Assembly: GCA_016184115.1 (NCBI GenBank)
Contig: JACPDH010000080.1
Coordinates: 6,116-70,115 of the forward strand
Reading direction: 5' to 3'
Length of the DNA: 64,000 bases
DNA from: Acidobacteriota bacterium
Lineage (GTDB): Bacteria; Acidobacteriota; Thermoanaerobaculia; Gp7-AA8
Below the pieces are notes generated by a model. The model worked only from the letters and a program-made list of their open reading frames with translations, ran no database searches and had not been told where the DNA came from. Positions within the stretch are counted from its first letter, which is position 1. Each line of letters opens with the position of its first letter. The translations under genes and the position numbers were made by a program. Below are positions 22,659 through 30,632 of this stretch, in pieces.

Positions 22659-23288
22659 ATGTACGATCCGAGCGGTTCCTCATTCGACTACGCAAACGTG
22701 ATCTTTTCCGTGCTGCAGGACTGCGAGCACCGCCGGCGCAGCTTCACCGACGACAACGTCCGTGAAGGGCTGCTCGAGTGCGCGAGAGAGAAGCTCGCGC
22801 GGGTGAAAGCGAGCTACCTCGAAGGGATGGGCTCGAAGAGCTACTGGCGCGACCTCGAGAAGGAAGTGCTCGAAACCGTGATGCCGCAGTACGCCGCGGC
22901 TGCCGCCGAACAGAACCGGCGAGAGAGGAATGGATACGGTGTCTTTCGCGGCGGCGACCTCGCCGCTCGCGTTGCCTTCGCCCTGCTCGGACTGGTCGCC
23001 GGCGCAGCGATCATCGCAATCCCGTTCATTCCGATTTTCGAAAAAGCGTTTGCGTTCGTGCTCGCCCTGGGTGGGTGGTTCTACCCCGACATGGTGCGGA
23101 TGACGTGGGAGTACAAACACTACAAACTCCTCAATCGCCTCGTGACCTCAGGCGAGCAATACCAAAGAAATCGCGCGACGTACGTCTCGACAGCCGATGT
23201 GGAAGGGGAGGACGAGCCGGATACCGACAGCCCGGCGCGTGCGGCCGCCAGACGCGCCATCGCCGCTGAGAGCACGCAGAAGCATTGA
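22659..23288 (+). CDS. Hypothetical membrane protein (two C-terminal TM helices).
   Basis: 209-aa ORF on the same strand, immediately after the SPFH pair. Confidence 0.5.
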   Translation: MYDPSGSSFDYANVIFSVLQDCEHRRRSFTDDNVREGLLECAREKLARVKASYLEGMGSKSYWRDLEKEVLETVMPQYAAAAAEQNRRERNGYGVFRGGDLAARVAFALLGLVAGAAIIAIPFIPIFEKAFAFVLALGGWFYPDMVRMTWEYKHYKLLNRLVTSGEQYQRNRATYVSTADVEGEDEPDTDSPARAAARRAIAAESTQKH

Positions 23289-23351
23289 TTCGCCCGCACC
23301 GGGATGAGAGTGACGGCCCGTGAGGTTAGCTGGAGGGATGGAGGTCGACGA

Positions 23352-24917
23352 ATGAGACGTCTTCTGGTGGGTGTAGCCGTCGCCGCGTTTGCGCTTGCCG
23401 GACTGCTGTTCGCGCAGACGCCAGCGCCCGCACTGCTGAAGTCTCCACAAGGAGAAGCTTCGATCTCGACCCTTGAGCTGAACGCGCAGCTTTACGTCGC
23501 CGCAGACGACTTCGTGAAAGCGATGGGTGGGACGATCGAGCCCGACGGCGCGGGCTTCAAGGTCACACTCCTCGGCAGACTCGGGGCGTTCGCTCCCGAC
23601 AACCAGTACGGTGTAGTCCGCGACGAGCTGATTGCCATGCCGGCACTTCCGACGGTGATCGAAGGACGCGCGTTCGTCCCGTGGCAGTTCTTTCGCGGTT
23701 TTCTGGGCAACGCTGGAGACTTCGACCTGCAGTGGAACGCCCAGGAGCGCATCTTCACCGTGTCGCCCCGCGTGCGCGAGAGCCTTACCGTCGGCATGTC
23801 GGTCATCGACCTCGACGACATCACGAAGGTCGTGGTTCAACTCTCGGGGCGCACCGAGTTCACGATCAACCGGAAGCAGCAAAGCTACATCATCAAGTTC
23901 GGAAACCCGATCGGCGCCCCGTTCACCGAGCAGAGCTATCAGAATGCGCACCTCGCCAAGGCGCTCTTCCGGCCTAACGAGCTCGAGCTCCAGCTCGCTG
24001 GTCCCGACGTTCAGGGAAGTGCCTACCGGCTCGACGATCCATTCCGCGTCGTGCTCGATCTTCGCCGAGGGGCGCCCGCCGTGGCTCCCGGAGCCGCGGG
24101 CTTCATCAAGCTGCCGCAACAGCGCCTTCCCGGTATCCGGACGATCGTCATCGACCCCGGGCACGGCGGCACCGACACCGGCGCGATCGGCCCAAGCGGG
24201 CTCGAAGAAAAGGCGATCACGCTCGCACTCGCGAAGAAGCTCTCGGCGCGCCTCTCGCGGCAGACCAGGGCGAGAATCGTCCTCACGCGCGACACCGACG
24301 ACCTCATTCCGTTGACGCAACGCACCGCGATCGCCAATGAGTTTCAGGCCGACCTCTTCATCTCGATCCACCTCAACTCCTCGCTTCGAAAAGGAGCGCA
24401 GGGCACCGAGTCGTATTTCCTTTCGCTGGAAGCGTCAGACGAGCTCGCCAAGCAAGTCGCCGAGAGGGAAAACGAGGAAGCGGGGGCGCCTGCCGCACCG
24501 GCATTGGCTGGAGACCTGAACTTCATTCTCTGGGATCTGGCACAACAGGAATACCTGAAGGAATCGAGCGACCTGGCCGAAACGATCCAGGACGAGCTCA
24601 GTAAGGCGACGAACACCGAGAACCGCGGCGTGAAACAGGCTCCGTTCCGCGTACTCATCGGAGCCACGATGCCGGCCGCGCTCGTCGAGGTCGGCTTCAT
24701 CTCGAATCCCGATGAGGAAGCGAAGCTCAAGAGCGATGAGCATCAGAACCGGCTCGTCGACGCGATCGTGACGGCGGTGGACCGATTCAAAACTCAGTAC
24801 GAAGCGAAACTCGGCGTGACAACGACGCCCGCACCTTCGGCCGTGCCTTCTCAGCCGCCGACGCCCGCACCGCCGACCGCGCCCCCACCAGCCGCAAGCG
24901 ACAAGGCGGGTCGATGA
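23352..24917 (+). CDS. N-acetylmuramoyl-L-alanine amidase (Amidase_3 / AmiC-like) with an N-terminal AMIN-like domain.
   Basis: VIDPGHGGTDTGA…, LFISIHLNS… and GFISNPDEE motifs. Signal peptide present. Confidence 0.85.
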   Translation: MRRLLVGVAVAAFALAGLLFAQTPAPALLKSPQGEASISTLELNAQLYVAADDFVKAMGGTIEPDGAGFKVTLLGRLGAFAPDNQYGVVRDELIAMPALPTVIEGRAFVPWQFFRGFLGNAGDFDLQWNAQERIFTVSPRVRESLTVGMSVIDLDDITKVVVQLSGRTEFTINRKQQSYIIKFGNPIGAPFTEQSYQNAHLAKALFRPNELELQLAGPDVQGSAYRLDDPFRVVLDLRRGAPAVAPGAAGFIKLPQQRLPGIRTIVIDPGHGGTDTGAIGPSGLEEKAITLALAKKLSARLSRQTRARIVLTRDTDDLIPLTQRTAIANEFQADLFISIHLNSSLRKGAQGTESYFLSLEASDELAKQVAERENEEAGAPAAPALAGDLNFILWDLAQQEYLKESSDLAETIQDELSKATNTENRGVKQAPFRVLIGATMPAALVEVGFISNPDEEAKLKSDEHQNRLVDAIVTAVDRFKTQYEAKLGVTTTPAPSAVPSQPPTPAPPTAPPPAASDKAGR

Positions 24918-25477
24918 CACTTCGCGCTCTTGCGCTCGGAGCGGTGGTCGTGTCTCTGCTCGCAGCGTGCAGCCGCAAGGGCCCTGTGCAGGCGACGAGC
25001 AGCCCGGCGCCGCCTCCGCCTACGGCAATGACGACGAAACCGGTTCAGCTCTTCTACGAGGACGAGTCCCTGCTCCTCGCGCCGCGCATTGAGCGCGTCG
25101 CACTTCCGGAAAGCGACGGCGCCGCGATCCGGCCGTTGCTCGCTGCGCTTCTCGCTCCCGCGCCGCCGGCGACCGAGCCGCGTCCGATACCGGAGGGCGT
25201 CGAGATCCGCGCCACGTTCCTCCTTCCAGACGGTACGGCGATCGTCGATCTCGGAGGGCCTCTCCTCACGGCGGGATGGAAGACGGGATCGCAGGCGGAG
25301 TTGATGCTCGCGTACTCGATCGTCCAGACGCTGACATCGAATCTCCCGTCGGTCCGGCAAGTCCAATTGCTGATCAACGGTCAGCCGGCCGAAACGCTCG
25401 CCGGCCACGTCTCGATCGAGCGTCCGCTGCAGCCGAATCCCAGGATTGTTCGTCCGCAAGCTGCTCGTAATCAATAG
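24914..25477 (+). CDS. GerMN-domain lipoprotein.
   Basis: Lipobox LLAAC. GerMN-like region. A 4-bp overlap with the amidase gene suggests an operon. Confidence 0.65.
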   Translation: MTLRALALGAVVVSLLAACSRKGPVQATSSPAPPPPTAMTTKPVQLFYEDESLLLAPRIERVALPESDGAAIRPLLAALLAPAPPATEPRPIPEGVEIRATFLLPDGTAIVDLGGPLLTAGWKTGSQAELMLAYSIVQTLTSNLPSVRQVQLLINGQPAETLAGHVSIERPLQPNPRIVRPQAARNQ

Positions 25478-25531
25478 CTTGACCTGCGAGAGTCAACGCT
25501 GGAATCGGCCCAGCGGCGTTACGTGATTTTT

Positions 25532-25561
25532 TTCACAAATCCGAGCCAATTCGGCTATACT
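25532..25561 (+). promoter_or_regulatory. Near-consensus sigma-70 promoter: -35 TTCACA, an 18-nt spacer, and -10 TATACT.
   Basis: ttcacaaatccgagccaattcggctatact. Confidence 0.55.
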
Positions 25562-25567
25562 CCGCGC

Positions 25568-25753
25568 GGCCTAAGAACTACTGGATGGGCAGGCGAAACG
25601 CATCCTGGTTTCCACCTGCCTCCCGAAAGGGAACGTCAGCACACCTAAGTCAGCCGCAGCACCGAGCAGCACCCCACTGAATCCGCAGTTGCATCGTTTC
25701 CAAACCCCATCCAGTTGAGGTTAGCGAGACCCCGGCAGACCGCCGGGGTTTCG
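25568..25753 (+). ncRNA. Candidate structured small RNA of about 185 nt, possibly 6S-like. Its 5' and 3' ends form a long closing stem (ctaa…actggatggg with cccatccagt…ttag), and it ends in a GC hairpin plus TTTCG.
   Basis: Promoter directly upstream. Terminator-like hairpin ccccggcagaccgccgggg+tttcg at 25730-25753. No ORF with coding character. Complementary segments 25581-25589 and 25706-25714. Confidence 0.35.
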
Positions 25754-25787
25754 TGCGTCTGGTGGAAACGAGTGGCAGGCACGCTCC

Positions 25788-25944
25788 GCTAGCCCCAATG
25801 GCCTGAAGTCAAGAAGAAGAGGCTGAAGTTAGAACGATGAACGATGAAGTTTGAACCCATAAAAGGGCCCCGGGCGGCTTTTCAAGGTTCAACGTTCGCC
25901 GTTCTACGTTCTAACTTCGAGACTTTCGTCCCTGGGTTCAGGCC
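25788..25944 (+). mobile_element. Palindromic MITE-like repeat element, copy 1. It has ~60-bp imperfect inverted arms and an internal (GAANNNT) heptamer periodicity.
   Basis: Matches the reverse complement of 30456..30632 at high identity: ggcctgaag…gaagttagaacgatgaacgatgaagtttgaaccc … gttcaggcc. Confidence 0.7.
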
Positions 25945-26024
25945 GTTTCTGCCAGCACGCATCGTTAGGCTGCACGATCAGCTCGCTCTTCGTCGGATCG
26001 ATCCTTGCGCTTCTCGATTCCCGA

Positions 26025-26477
26025 TCATTTCCCGCAGTCGCACTGTGGGCAGCCGTTGTCGAGCACGATCTTCCAGGAGCCGTCGGCCTCGCGTCGCCAG
26101 ACCGAATTGAATGTTCCGACGCGCTCCCCGGTGTCGACGTCCGTCACCGGCCCGCTGCTCATCGCGATCGTGCCCGACTCGAGCACCTCGACCTTCTCCG
26201 GCCCCCACGCGAAGGGAGCCTTGGGCCCCTCGAAGTAGCGCTTCCAACTCTCGGCCACTGCGCCTTGGCCGCGCGTGACGCCCTTCGCACTGAAGAAGAT
26301 CGCCTCGTCGGCGAGGAATGAGGTGAACTTCGCGTGGTCGCGATCGGCCATCGTCTTCGCGAAGGCAACCTCGCTCTTCCAGACCTGCGCCTTCAGCTCC
26401 GCGTTTGATTCGCCGCGTGCCGAGAGCATCGTCAACGTGAGCAGGGCCGCAATCGTCGTGAGTTTTCCGAGCTTCAT
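26025..26477 (-). CDS. Secreted SnoaL/NTF2-like (DUF4440-type) domain protein.
   Basis: Signal peptide. About 130-aa NTF2-like fold pattern. Confidence 0.5.
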   Translation of the reverse strand: MKLGKLTTIAALLTLTMLSARGESNAELKAQVWKSEVAFAKTMADRDHAKFTSFLADEAIFFSAKGVTRGQGAVAESWKRYFEGPKAPFAWGPEKVEVLESGTIAMSSGPVTDVDTGERVGTFNSVWRREADGSWKIVLDNGCPQCDCGK

Positions 26478-30455: not shown

Positions 30456-30632
30456 GGGCTAGTCCTAATGGCCTGAACTTAGGGACGAAAGTCCTCGAAG
30501 TTCGAACGTGGAGCTTTCAATGCTGAACCCTGAAACCCCCGCTCGAGGCCCCTTTTCTGGGTTCAAACTTCATCGTTCATCGTTCTAACTTCGGCCTCTT
30601 CCTCTTAAGTTCAGGCCATTTAGGCTAGTCCC
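30456..30632 (-). mobile_element. Palindromic MITE-like repeat element, copy 2 (complete). It has ~23-bp terminal inverted repeats GGGCTAGTCCTAATGGCCTGAAC / GTTCAGGCCATTTAGGCTAGTCCC. Its right end supplies the TAG stop codon of msrA.
   Basis: High-identity reverse-complement match to 25788..25944. Located between the convergent holB and msrA genes. Confidence 0.7.

What the first reader, a model, noticed from the sequence alone, without database searches (positions are those of the whole stretch)
25528..25800. Candidate ~185-nt structured sRNA (6S-like?) with a strong promoter and terminator, independent of the flanking genes
Between the GerMN gene and the MITE there is a near-consensus sigma-70 promoter (TTCACA, 18 nt, TATACT). 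A region with no coding signal follows. Its 5' segment (ctaagaactactggatggg) base-pairs with a 3' segment (cccatccagttgaggttag) to form a long closing stem. It ends in a GC-rich hairpin (ccccggc-agac-gccgggg) followed by TTTCG. A second complementary pair (ggtttccacc / ggtggaaacg) lies just outside, so the mature 3' end is uncertain. The size and the closing-stem-plus-internal-loop layout are compatible with 6S RNA, but no conserved 6S bubble motif could be verified by eye.
Basis: seen in the sequence. Interest (0 to 1): 0.55.

Follow-up and report, generated by a model that had tools for sequence, protein, structure and literature searches.

The report
New conserved small RNA, not 6S
The region encodes a real, uncatalogued small non-coding RNA of about 190 nt, with its own promoter and terminator, that sits just after a cell-wall amidase operon throughout one class of Acidobacteria (Thermoanaerobaculia); it does not look like 6S RNA, and it is most likely an ordinary regulatory RNA with unknown targets.

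Summary
The promoter (TTCACA-18-TATACT), the 5'/3' closing stem and the GC hairpin are all present. The + strand folds better than shuffles (z = -3.5), the - strand does not (z = -1.0).

I found 39 distinct homologues, all in Thermoanaerobaculia/Acidobacteriota MAGs and metagenomes. Each lies directly downstream of an Amidase_3-GerMN gene pair on the same strand, even where GerMN is only 43-48% identical.

A covariance model built from the distant clade finds exactly one copy per locus, including window 25558-25757.

- **Structure supported:** the terminator (8 of 10 pairs compensatory) and a newly found extension of the closing stem, P1b (5 pairs compensatory).
- **Structure inferred only:** P1 and the P2 hairpin stem (P2a) never change in sequence.
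- **Interior:** 65-95 nt enclosed by the closing stem, G-poor and C-rich, and largely unstructured.
- **Not coding:** no reading frame is conserved.

No Rfam family matches, 6S included, even at E <= 10. There is no 6S-type terminal stem.

Best reading: a new lineage-specific sRNA, controlled by a transcription factor (a conserved CRP-like palindrome) and probably acting in trans through its open loop. The function is inferred, not shown.

The parts
25523..25537 (+). Conserved palindrome GTGA-N6-TCAC(A), a CRP/FNR-type half-site pattern. It overlaps the -35-like hexamer TTCACA (25532-25537) and is a probable transcription-factor operator.
   Evidence: The TTTCACAA box and its upstream partner are present in all 40 distinct upstream regions, while the N2-N6 spacer varies. 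There are only 2 GTGA-N6-TCAC sites in the 64 kb. Function is inferred.
25556..25561 (+). -10 hexamer TATACT. The predicted transcription start is about 25567-25569.
   Evidence: Promoter scan, (10 of 12 matches). A -10 hexamer (TATACT, TAGAAT, GATAAT or TATAAT) is conserved at this place in all homologues. The start site is not mapped.
25580..25589 (+). P1, 5' strand: ACUGGAUGGG.
   Evidence: Perfect 10-bp complement of 25706-25715. Invariant in 38 of 38 sequences apart from one A-to-G change that gives G.U (L009), which fits pairing on the + strand only.
25588..25620 (+). P2 hairpin: GGCAGG (25588-25593) pairs with CCUGCC (25615-25620). It encloses GAAACG...GUUUC. This may be an alternative conformer to P1b, or form a pseudoknot with it.
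   Evidence: Present in the MFE and the centroid. Sequence-invariant, with one compensatory C-G to U-A change in L005/L039. In clade B it overlaps the outer part of P1b.
25595..25600 (+). P1b, 5' strand (S5): GAAACG. It pairs with CGUUUC at 25695-25700 and extends the closing stem.
   Evidence: In clade B the equivalent 13-bp helix is 88.6% paired against 19-48% for slid controls. It has 5 pairs with changes on both sides, and 0 of 500 shuffles reach the covariation score. In clade A it is 6-8 bp (GAAACG/CGUUUC, or UGGAAACU/GGUUUCCG), read from the alignment.
25621..25632 (+). P3 hairpin: UCCC-GAAA-GGGA, with a GNRA tetraloop.
   Evidence: The loop is GAAA, GCAA or GAGA in relatives. The fourth pair is U-A or C-G in L005/L007/L039, and L009 has CUC/GAG. 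Found in clade A only.
25633..25694 (+). C/A-rich, G-poor region carrying three CAGCAC repeats. It is the candidate effector (seed or binding) region.
   Evidence: Composition: C 36%, G 20%, A 30% in clade A. The clade B equivalent is C 35%, G 14%, U 31% and has no consensus structure. Well conserved within each clade and different between clades.
25695..25700 (+). P1b, 3' strand (S3): CGUUUC.
   Evidence: Invariant in clade A1. The competing proximal GUUUC (25608-25612) is mutated in L001/L004.
25706..25715 (+). P1, 3' strand: CCCAUCCAGU.
25725..25753 (+). Terminator hairpin (12-bp stem, loop AGACC) followed by a weak U-tract. The RNA 3' end lies at about 25753-25760.
   Evidence: 8 of 10 modelled pairs show compensatory changes across 38 sequences. 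Clade B copies carry runs of 5-8 U. The covariance-model match ends at 25757.

Best explanation
Window positions about 25568 to 25757 (+) encode a non-coding small RNA of about 190 nt. It belongs to a previously uncatalogued family confined, as far as sampled, to Thermoanaerobaculia (Acidobacteriota).

**Shown**
- It has its own conserved promoter, with a -10 hexamer and a conserved palindrome of the CRP/FNR half-site type.
- It ends at a GC-rich intrinsic-terminator hairpin.
- It always occupies the position just 3' of the amidase-GerMN gene pair, on the same strand.
- The mature RNA is a long closing stem: an invariant 10-12 bp P1 plus P1b, which is 6-13 bp and supported by covariation.
- That stem holds open a G-poor, C-rich and largely unstructured loop of 65-95 nt. 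A sequence-invariant hairpin stem, P2a, is an alternative or pseudoknotted element.

**Inferred**
- The open loop is the working part. It carries pyrimidine-rich, anti-Shine-Dalgarno-like motifs: GCCUCC in the window's clade, and CCUCUU and CUUCCUU in the other. It probably pairs in trans with purine-rich sites on mRNAs to control translation or stability.
- Transcription is set by a transcription factor bound at the palindrome.

I rate 'real conserved sRNA gene' at about 0.85 and 'acts by trans base-pairing' at about 0.4.
For: - **Promoter and fold:** the only promoter-like site in the region. The fold is strand-specific and significant.
- **Block conservation:** promoter plus RNA plus terminator are conserved as a block, while the flanks are not.
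- **Homologues:** 39 distinct copies from protein-anchored loci and from two collection scans.
- **One copy per locus:** a model built from clade B alone recovers every clade A copy, including the window. It finds nothing in the chance-match loci or in the Vicinamibacterales loci.
- **Synteny:** strict linkage to amidase-GerMN, although the genes further downstream are rearranged.
- **Covariation:** in the terminator and in P1b.
- **Strand:** the G.U variant in P1 fits the + strand only.
- **Non-coding:** the conserved block is read in all three frames in different members.
- **Interior:** unstructured and G-depleted, with near-invariant motifs within each clade.
- **Not catalogued:** no Rfam family matches.
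Against: - There are no expression data. The start site and 3' end are predicted, not mapped.
- No target was found. Complementarity to the translation-initiation regions of the neighbouring hyp209, amidase and GerMN genes is no better than for shuffled sequence. Genome-wide prediction was not possible.
- The loop sequence differs between the two clades, while P1 and P2a are invariant. That is the reverse of the usual sRNA pattern, where the seed is the most conserved part, and it hints at protein recognition of the helix.
- P1 and part of P2a were fixed by my search patterns in about 30 of the 39 sequences. Their invariance is therefore unbiased only in the 9 protein-anchored loci.
- The window's U-tract is weak.
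Confidence: 0.55

Rival explanations
1. A protein-binding or decoy RNA. The sequence-invariant P1/P2 helix would be a specific protein-recognition platform. The G-poor, C-rich open loop would titrate an RNA-binding factor, for example Rho (the loop resembles a rut site), ribosomal protein S1 or the 30S subunit, or another regulator. Messenger RNAs would not be the target.
For: - P1 and P2a are invariant in sequence, while the terminator stem covaries freely in the same sequences. That points to a constraint beyond base pairing.
- The loop is 65-95 nt, C about 35%, G 14-20%, and largely unstructured. From general knowledge, that is the composition of Rho-binding sites.
- The loop contains short repeats: CAGCAC three times in the window, and YUUGAAY twice in clade B.
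- The loop sequence differs between clades, but the composition is kept.
Against: - No protein partner is indicated by the genomic context. The neighbours are a periplasmic amidase and a lipoprotein.
- There are no GGA-type CsrA motif arrays.
- Invariance of P1 and P2a is partly an artefact of pattern-based retrieval.
- G-poor loops are also typical of base-pairing seeds.
Confidence: 0.2
2. A cis-acting 3'-UTR and terminator module of the amidase-GerMN operon, affecting mRNA stability, termination or processing, with no function in trans. The apparent promoter would be secondary.
For: - The RNA always lies directly 3' of GerMN on the same strand, at every evolutionary distance sampled.
- In the window, no terminator-like site separates the GerMN stop (25477) from the RNA. 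Operon transcripts would therefore probably end at the RNA's terminator.
Against: - The -10 hexamer, the TTTCACAA box and the palindrome are conserved in all 40 upstream regions. That is unnecessary for a plain 3' UTR.
- In L009 a hairpin followed by a T-run (CAGACCGG-CCAT-CCGGTCTG-TTTT) lies between GerMN and the RNA promoter (sequence), so the RNA is a separate unit there.
- A G-poor open loop of 65-95 nt held by a 24-bp stem is far more than a terminator needs.
Confidence: 0.1
3. A divergent 6S-type RNA that binds the housekeeping RNA polymerase holoenzyme by mimicking an open promoter.
For: - The size is right, about 150 nt from P1 to P1, or 190 nt with the terminator.
- The closing stem is long and interrupted, about 24 bp in clade B.
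- A large unpaired region lies inside it.
- 6S RNAs are known to escape sequence-based models in some phyla (general knowledge).
Against: - No match to any 6S model in the window or in relatives, even at E <= 10, and none at gathering score in 185 kb of related sequence.
- There is no conserved terminal stem opposite the closing stem. The interior has zero consensus structure in clade B and only a small GNRA hairpin in clade A.
- The 'bubble' is effectively one long strand, not two.
- The helix sequence is invariant, unlike in 6S.
- The mature RNA carries an intrinsic terminator, and the promoter looks regulated rather than constitutive.
Confidence: 0.07
4. A gene for a small protein, or a leaderless mRNA. 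Open reading frames of 25-50 codons start in the 5' leader in many members.
For: Many clade B copies have an ATG or GTG 13-15 nt upstream of P1 that opens a frame of 25-48 codons.
Against: - The start lies in frame 0, 1 or 2 relative to P1 in different members.
- Indels of 1-2 nt are common.
- The most conserved nucleotide block is read as LFLESYR, SSLNLTD or CTLP* in different members.
- Clade A and subclade B2 lack the start altogether.
Confidence: 0.02

Closest known systems
6S RNA (SsrS; Rfam RF00013 and related 6S models)
   Same: A stand-alone RNA of about 150-190 nt. The 5' and 3' ends pair in a long interrupted closing stem that encloses a large unpaired region.
   Different: - No covariance-model match.
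- No terminal stem and no two-stranded central bubble.
- The helix sequence is invariant, not merely its structure.
- It ends in an intrinsic terminator.
- Its promoter appears to be regulated by a transcription factor.
- It has a fixed position after amidase-GerMN.
CRP-controlled Hfq-type sRNAs of enterobacteria (CyaR, Spot 42)
   Same: A small trans-acting-type gene with its own promoter carrying a TGTGA-N6-TCACA-like palindrome, a Rho-independent terminator and an accessible pyrimidine-rich region. The comparison with those sRNAs rests on general knowledge.
   Different: - No sequence or structural homology.
- About twice as long.
- The seed candidate is a loop of 65-95 nt closed by a 24-bp stem, not a short linear seed.
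- The palindrome centre lies at about -38.5 or -28.5, not -41.5 (relative to a predicted start site).
- The transcription factor is unknown.
C-rich-motif sRNAs that target Shine-Dalgarno sequences (RsaE/RoxS of Firmicutes)
   Same: G-poor, C-rich unpaired motifs (GCCUCC, CCUCUU, CUUCCUU, ACCCCC) of the kind that pair with purine-rich ribosome-binding sites. The comparison is from general knowledge; the motifs are seen.
   Different: An unrelated lineage and fold. No targets identified. The motifs differ between the two clades of this family.
3'-UTR-located sRNAs with their own promoter (type I, e.g. DapZ, MicL)
   Same: It sits directly downstream of a protein-coding operon on the same strand and probably shares that operon's terminator.
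   Different: The promoter lies in the intergenic spacer 45-200 nt after the stop codon, not inside the upstream gene. At least one member (L009) has a separate terminator-like hairpin after GerMN.

Membership tests
6S RNA | Match to the Rfam 6S covariance models (RF00013 and lineage-specific 6S families) | tested here: not met
   There is no match at gathering score in the window or in 13 related loci. No 6S match appears even at E <= 10 on 25400-26050 or on the clade B copy in L029.
6S RNA | Rod-like architecture: closing stem, large two-stranded central bubble, long terminal stem-loop | tested here: not met
   A closing stem is present: P1 plus P1b. The enclosed 65-95 nt have no consensus helix in clade B (alifold gives 0.0 and single-sequence MFE is -2 to -11 kcal/mol). 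In clade A they hold only a small GNRA hairpin.
6S RNA | Length of about 150-200 nt, stand-alone gene | tested here: met
   The covariance-model match is 25558-25757. The predicted transcript is about 190 nt.
6S RNA | Binds the sigma-70/sigma-A holoenzyme and templates pRNA synthesis | not testable with these tools
   This needs biochemistry.
Trans-acting base-pairing sRNA (Hfq-type architecture) | Own promoter and Rho-independent terminator delimiting a short non-coding transcript | tested here: met
   Promoter. The terminator stem covaries. U-tails are strong in clade B and weak in the window. No frame is conserved. Transcription itself was not observed.
Trans-acting base-pairing sRNA (Hfq-type architecture) | Conserved, accessible single-stranded seed | tested here: inconclusive
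   There is an unstructured, G-poor loop with near-invariant motifs within each clade. However, the motifs differ between clades, and the most conserved sequence lies in the helices.
Trans-acting base-pairing sRNA (Hfq-type architecture) | Conserved complementarity to mRNA targets | tested here: inconclusive
   Only the neighbouring genes could be tested. Nothing exceeded shuffled controls. Whole genomes were not available.
Trans-acting base-pairing sRNA (Hfq-type architecture) | Binding to an RNA chaperone (Hfq or ProQ) | not testable with these tools
CRP/FNR-type regulated promoter | Palindrome of the TGTGA-N6-TCACA type | tested here: met
   The window has GTGATTTTTTTCAC at 25523-25536. Clade A has GTGA(A/T)3-N2-TTTCAC and clade B has TTG(A/G)GAAA-N2-TTTCACAA, in all 40 upstream regions.
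CRP/FNR-type regulated promoter | Site centred at -41.5 (class II) or -61.5 and similar (class I) from the transcription start | tested here: inconclusive
   The centre lies about 38.5 nt (long form, including the window) or 28.5 nt (short form) upstream of a start site that is only predicted from the -10 hexamer.
CRP/FNR-type regulated promoter | A cognate Crp/Fnr-family regulator and a regulon sharing the site | not tested
   Only one other GTGA-N6-TCAC occurs in the 64 kb, and it lies inside an ORF.
3'-UTR-derived sRNA, type I | Located in the 3' UTR of, and sharing a terminator with, the upstream gene | tested here: inconclusive
   The RNA is always 3' of GerMN on the same strand. The window has no intervening terminator-like site. 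L009 has a hairpin with a T-run between them.

The most novel reading that the evidence does not exclude
The RNA is not a conventional antisense regulator. It would be a lineage-specific ribonucleoprotein decoy tied to cell-envelope growth. In this reading the sequence-invariant P1/P2 helix is a dedicated protein-docking site. The C-rich, G-poor open loop of 65-95 nt traps a global factor: Rho, the 30S subunit or S1, or RNA polymerase as a structurally unorthodox functional analogue of 6S. The mutually exclusive P2a and outer-P1b pairings would then act as a conformational switch.
Probability: 0.12. Interest if true: 0.7.

Novelty: new member of a known kind. Interest (0 to 1): 0.4.

Why it matters
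Acidobacteria are among the most abundant soil and sediment bacteria, yet they have almost no described regulatory RNAs. A 2022 survey lists 4 annotated sRNAs for the whole phylum (PMC9029176). I found nothing on Thermoanaerobaculia non-coding RNAs.

This family has a clear promoter, a clear terminator, an operator-like palindrome and a structure backed by covariation. That makes it a ready-made handle for studying post-transcriptional control in an uncultured class.

Three features make it more than a routine sRNA candidate:
- its fixed linkage to a peptidoglycan amidase operon;
- the unusual pattern of an invariant helix with a loop that differs between clades;
- the two competing pairings, P2a and outer P1b.

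It remains, on present evidence, one more bacterial sRNA family rather than a new principle.

Tried and rejected
1. **Rfam.** I ran gathering and permissive scans on the window and on relatives. Only spurious hits appeared: plant miRNA models on the neighbouring hairpin element, and a terminator-only match to PsrR1.
2. **6S architecture.** Rejected on structure.
Real pairs average -6.0 kcal/mol against -6.6 for shuffled trailers.
4. **Pairing of the 5' leader with the segment upstream of the P1 3' strand.** Mean z = -0.76, not convincing.
5. **A CUC/GAG long-range pair and a CUCA/UGAG hairpin in clade B.** Both conflict with inner P1b and are broken in L061, which keeps P1b.
6. **Helices inside the loop of clade B, such as GUACAAG/UUUGUAC.** Present in some members, not conserved.
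7. **Small ORF.** Rejected by the frame analysis.
8. **Local targets.**
   - RNAduplex scans of 3 kb upstream gave only long, uninformative duplexes at inconsistent positions.
   - The longest complementary runs to the hyp209, amidase and GerMN initiation regions are not significant (p about 0.08-1.0). The ACCUGCCU/AGGCGGGU match at the GerMN ribosome-binding site occurs in three close relatives only.
9. **Survey of Shine-Dalgarno usage in the window.** Too noisy in this high-GC sequence to use.
10. **Extra copies.** None in the window.
11. **Presence outside Thermoanaerobaculia.** In Vicinamibacterales, amidase-GerMN is followed directly by RNase PH and Ham1, with no intergenic space.

Eleven pattern matches in other phyla were chance hits: they lie in coding sequence, lack a promoter and terminator, and get no covariance-model hit.
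Full report
**What is in the window**

The interval lies between two convergent genes. One is a GerMN-domain lipoprotein gene (24914-25477, +), which overlaps the stop of an Amidase_3 gene (23304-24917, +). The other is a DUF4440/SnoaL gene (26025-26477, -).

- TTCACA (25532-25537), an 18-nt spacer, then TATACT (25556-25561). This is the only sigma-70-like site in 25300-26200, where shuffles give 0.2.
- ACUGGAUGGG (25580-25589), perfectly complementary to CCCAUCCAGU (25706-25715).
- A GC hairpin, CCCCGGC-AGACC-GCCGGGG (25730-25748), extendable to 12 bp.

The strict terminator scan finds nothing because the window's U-run is weak (UUUCGUG). The + strand folds at -72.2 kcal/mol, z = -3.5, with 0 of 200 shuffles as good. 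The - strand gives z = -1.0.

**Organism and relatives**

The GerMN protein is 100% identical to one from an Acidobacteria MAG. Its closest named relatives come from Thermoanaerobaculia MAGs.

Contigs encoding GerMN homologues of 48-79% identity have the same gene order. Alignment of the intergenic DNA shows one conserved block, running from about 45 nt upstream of the -10 hexamer to the end of the hairpin. The flanks do not align.

| Region, window vs L001/L003/L004 | Identity |
|---|---|
| Promoter plus RNA | 75-83% |
| GerMN coding DNA | 73-77% |
| Flanking spacers | about 50% or less |

The hairpin element at 25825-25918 is absent from L001.

**Family size and distribution**

I ran two pattern scans built from the invariant segments.
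- The genome scan returned 24 loci. Sixteen are real, all from Thermoanaerobaculia or Acidobacteriota MAGs.
- The metagenome scan returned 24 loci, of which 20 are real.
- The rest are chance matches inside coding sequence.

Together with the protein-anchored loci this gives 39 distinct RNA sequences. They fall into two clades.
- **Clade A** contains the window, L001, L003, L004, L020 and L056, plus the more distant L005, L039, L007 and L009.
- **Clade B** has 29 sequences and includes a subclade, B2.

A covariance model built from clade B alone recovers every clade A copy. The window hit is 25558-25757 at 25.9 bits, E about 3e-5. The model finds exactly one sense copy per locus. It finds none in the 11 chance loci and none in the Vicinamibacterales loci.

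In Vicinamibacterales, amidase-GerMN runs straight into RNase PH and Ham1 with no spacer. L061 carries a clade B copy that the patterns had missed, with CCUGCCAG in place of CCUGCCUC.

**Synteny**

In every real locus whose fetched sequence reaches far enough upstream, the RNA follows amidase-GerMN on the same strand. This holds even where GerMN is only 43-48% identical. The genes beyond it differ between loci: DUF4440/TerB, an inverted SDR/GT2 pair, or an inserted PhyH and methyltransferase. The RNA is therefore linked to the operon upstream of it, not to the gene downstream.

**Structure**

- **Terminator.** Eight of its 10 modelled pairs show compensatory changes.
- **P1.** It never varies, apart from one A-to-G change that gives G.U in L009. 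That change is tolerated only on the + strand.
Not supported across the family.
- **P1b, a new finding.** Folding of clade B representatives revealed a second helix that continues P1. The segment just 3' of the P1 5' strand (GGCG.GAGAGCCGCUU) pairs with the segment just 5' of the P1 3' strand (GAGCG.UUCGCGCC).
  - On the clade B alignment, 88.6% of cells are paired, against 19-48% when the partner is slid.
  - Five pairs change on both sides, and 0 of 500 shuffles reach the covariation score.
  - Examples: CGAGAAU/AUUCUCG in L018; A-U to U-A in B2; C-G to U-A in L041/L044, with a C.A intermediate in L053.
  - With P1b, the closing stem is about 24 bp in clade B.
  - In clade A, P1b is GAAACG/CGUUUC (window 25595-25600 with 25695-25700), or UGGAAACU/GGUUUCCG in L005/L039.
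- **P2a hairpin stem** (GGCAGG/CCUGCC, window 25588-25593 with 25615-25620). It is sequence-invariant, with one compensatory C-G to U-A change in L005/L039. It shares its GGC with outer P1b in clade B, so the two are either alternative conformers or a pseudoknot. L053's G-to-A change is compensated in P1b but not in P2a.
- **P3.** Clade A also has a small GNRA-capped hairpin (25621-25632) with compensatory variants.

A caveat applies to P1 and part of P2a. My search patterns fixed their sequence in about 30 of the sequences. Their invariance is unbiased only in the 9 protein-anchored loci.

**The interior**

The closing stem (P1 plus P1b) encloses 65-95 nt. In clade B this stretch has no consensus structure: the alifold energy is 0.0 and single-sequence MFE is only -2 to -11 kcal/mol.

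| | C | G | A | U |
|---|---|---|---|---|
| Clade A interior | 36% | 20% | 30% | 13% |
| Clade B interior | 35% | 14% | 20% | 31% |
| Window overall | 33% | 30% | 19% | 18% |

These figures come and cover the stretch between the P2a 3' strand and P1b.

Within each clade the interior is well conserved. Clade B has a near-invariant CCUCUUGAACUCUUCCUUGAAUCUUACCGA. The window has GCCUCCC and three CAGCAC repeats. The two clades differ here.

No reading frame is conserved. Possible starts fall in all three frames, 1-2 nt indels are frequent, and the conserved block is translated three different ways.

**Promoter**

All 40 distinct upstream regions keep a -10 hexamer and a TTTCACAA box. With its upstream partner, the box forms a palindrome of the CRP/FNR half-site type. 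In the window this is GTGA-N6-TCAC at 25523-25536.

The distance from the box to the -10 hexamer is 18-19 nt in some members, including the window. In the others it is 8-10 nt, often with an extended -10 (TGn). The two classes differ by one helical turn. Relative to a predicted start site, the palindrome centre lies at about -38.5 or -28.5. I cannot say whether the factor activates or represses.

**Comparison with known families**

No Rfam family reaches gathering score in the window or in 121 kb of related loci. At E <= 10 there is no 6S hit. Only spurious matches appear.

Against the defining features of 6S:
- size and a closing stem are met;
- the covariance-model match and the bubble-plus-terminal-stem architecture are not met;
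- RNA polymerase binding is untestable here.

The layout is that of a bacterial sRNA gene: promoter, operator, open pyrimidine-rich region and intrinsic terminator. Functionally it is most like sRNAs controlled by a transcription factor, such as CyaR or Spot 42, and like C-rich-motif sRNAs that target Shine-Dalgarno sequences, such as RsaE/RoxS. Those comparisons rest on general knowledge, and there is no homology to any of them. Its position after an operon recalls 3'-UTR sRNAs with their own promoter.

I found no literature on Thermoanaerobaculia non-coding RNAs. A 2022 survey counts 4 annotated sRNAs for Acidobacteria (PMC9029176).

**Mechanism**

- **Shown:** a conserved, single-copy, non-coding, strand-specific structured element with promoter-like and terminator-like boundaries and a fixed genomic position.
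- **Inferred:**
  - It is transcribed as an RNA of about 190 nt under control of a factor that binds the palindrome.
  - The closing stem holds the G-poor loop open.
  - The loop acts in trans, most simply by pairing with purine-rich ribosome-binding regions.

Searches for targets among the neighbouring genes were negative. The invariant helix combined with a clade-specific loop is atypical for seed-driven sRNAs. That keeps a protein-decoy reading alive at about 0.2. The cis/3'-UTR rival stands at about 0.1 and the 6S rival at about 0.07.

**Verdict**

This is a new family of a known kind. It has moderate interest for RNA biology in an understudied phylum, and it is immediately testable with metatranscriptomes and whole-MAG target prediction.

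Noticed in passing
window 25825-25918 and 30568-30592: An imperfect inverted repeat with 41-nt arms, 78% complementary and 12 nt apart, lies just after the RNA. It is built of GAACGATGAA-type units. An identical 25-nt arm segment recurs at 30568-30592 (-). The element is absent from the syntenic locus L001, and L003/L004 carry different GAATGAAGAATG-rich insertions at the same place. It looks like a dispersed REP- or MITE-like hairpin element. It also caused the spurious plant-miRNA Rfam hits.
   Followed up: partly
window 25523-25561; upstream regions of L001-L061: The distance between the conserved TTTCACAA box (part of the palindrome) and the -10 hexamer is either 18-19 nt or 8-10 nt in different family members, a difference of one helical turn. 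Short-form promoters often have an extended -10 (TGn).
   Followed up: partly
clade B loci, e.g. L029, L040, L014 (upstream of and just after the RNA): Clade B promoters carry direct repeats TGTCACA-N4-AGTTACA with an 11-bp period, resembling a Pho box or OmpR-type site. The repeats sit immediately upstream of a TTGAGA hexamer. Several clade B copies also have the palindrome GTAACCGGTTAC right after the terminator U-run.
   Followed up: no
L058-L060 (Vicinamibacterales): The Amidase_3-GerMN pair is conserved beyond Thermoanaerobaculia. There it is followed directly by RNase PH and a Ham1-like NTP pyrophosphatase, with overlapping or abutting genes and no room for the RNA.
   Followed up: yes
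window 22659-23288 (+): A 209-aa predicted membrane protein with no Pfam match lies directly upstream of the amidase gene. It is 61-91% identical across the clade A loci, but tblastn found no match in L009 or in any clade B locus.
   Followed up: no
Its 3' half lies beyond the terminator in unconserved DNA. Its 5' half overlaps the proximal GUUUC, which is itself mutated in L001/L004.
   Followed up: yes
window about 24896-24903 (GerMN ribosome-binding region) versus 25614-25621: The RNA's ACCUGCCU can pair, with G.U pairs, with AGGCGGGU 10 nt upstream of the GerMN start in the window, L001 and L004. The match is not significant against shuffles (p about 0.45-0.7) and is absent from more distant loci.
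   Followed up: yes
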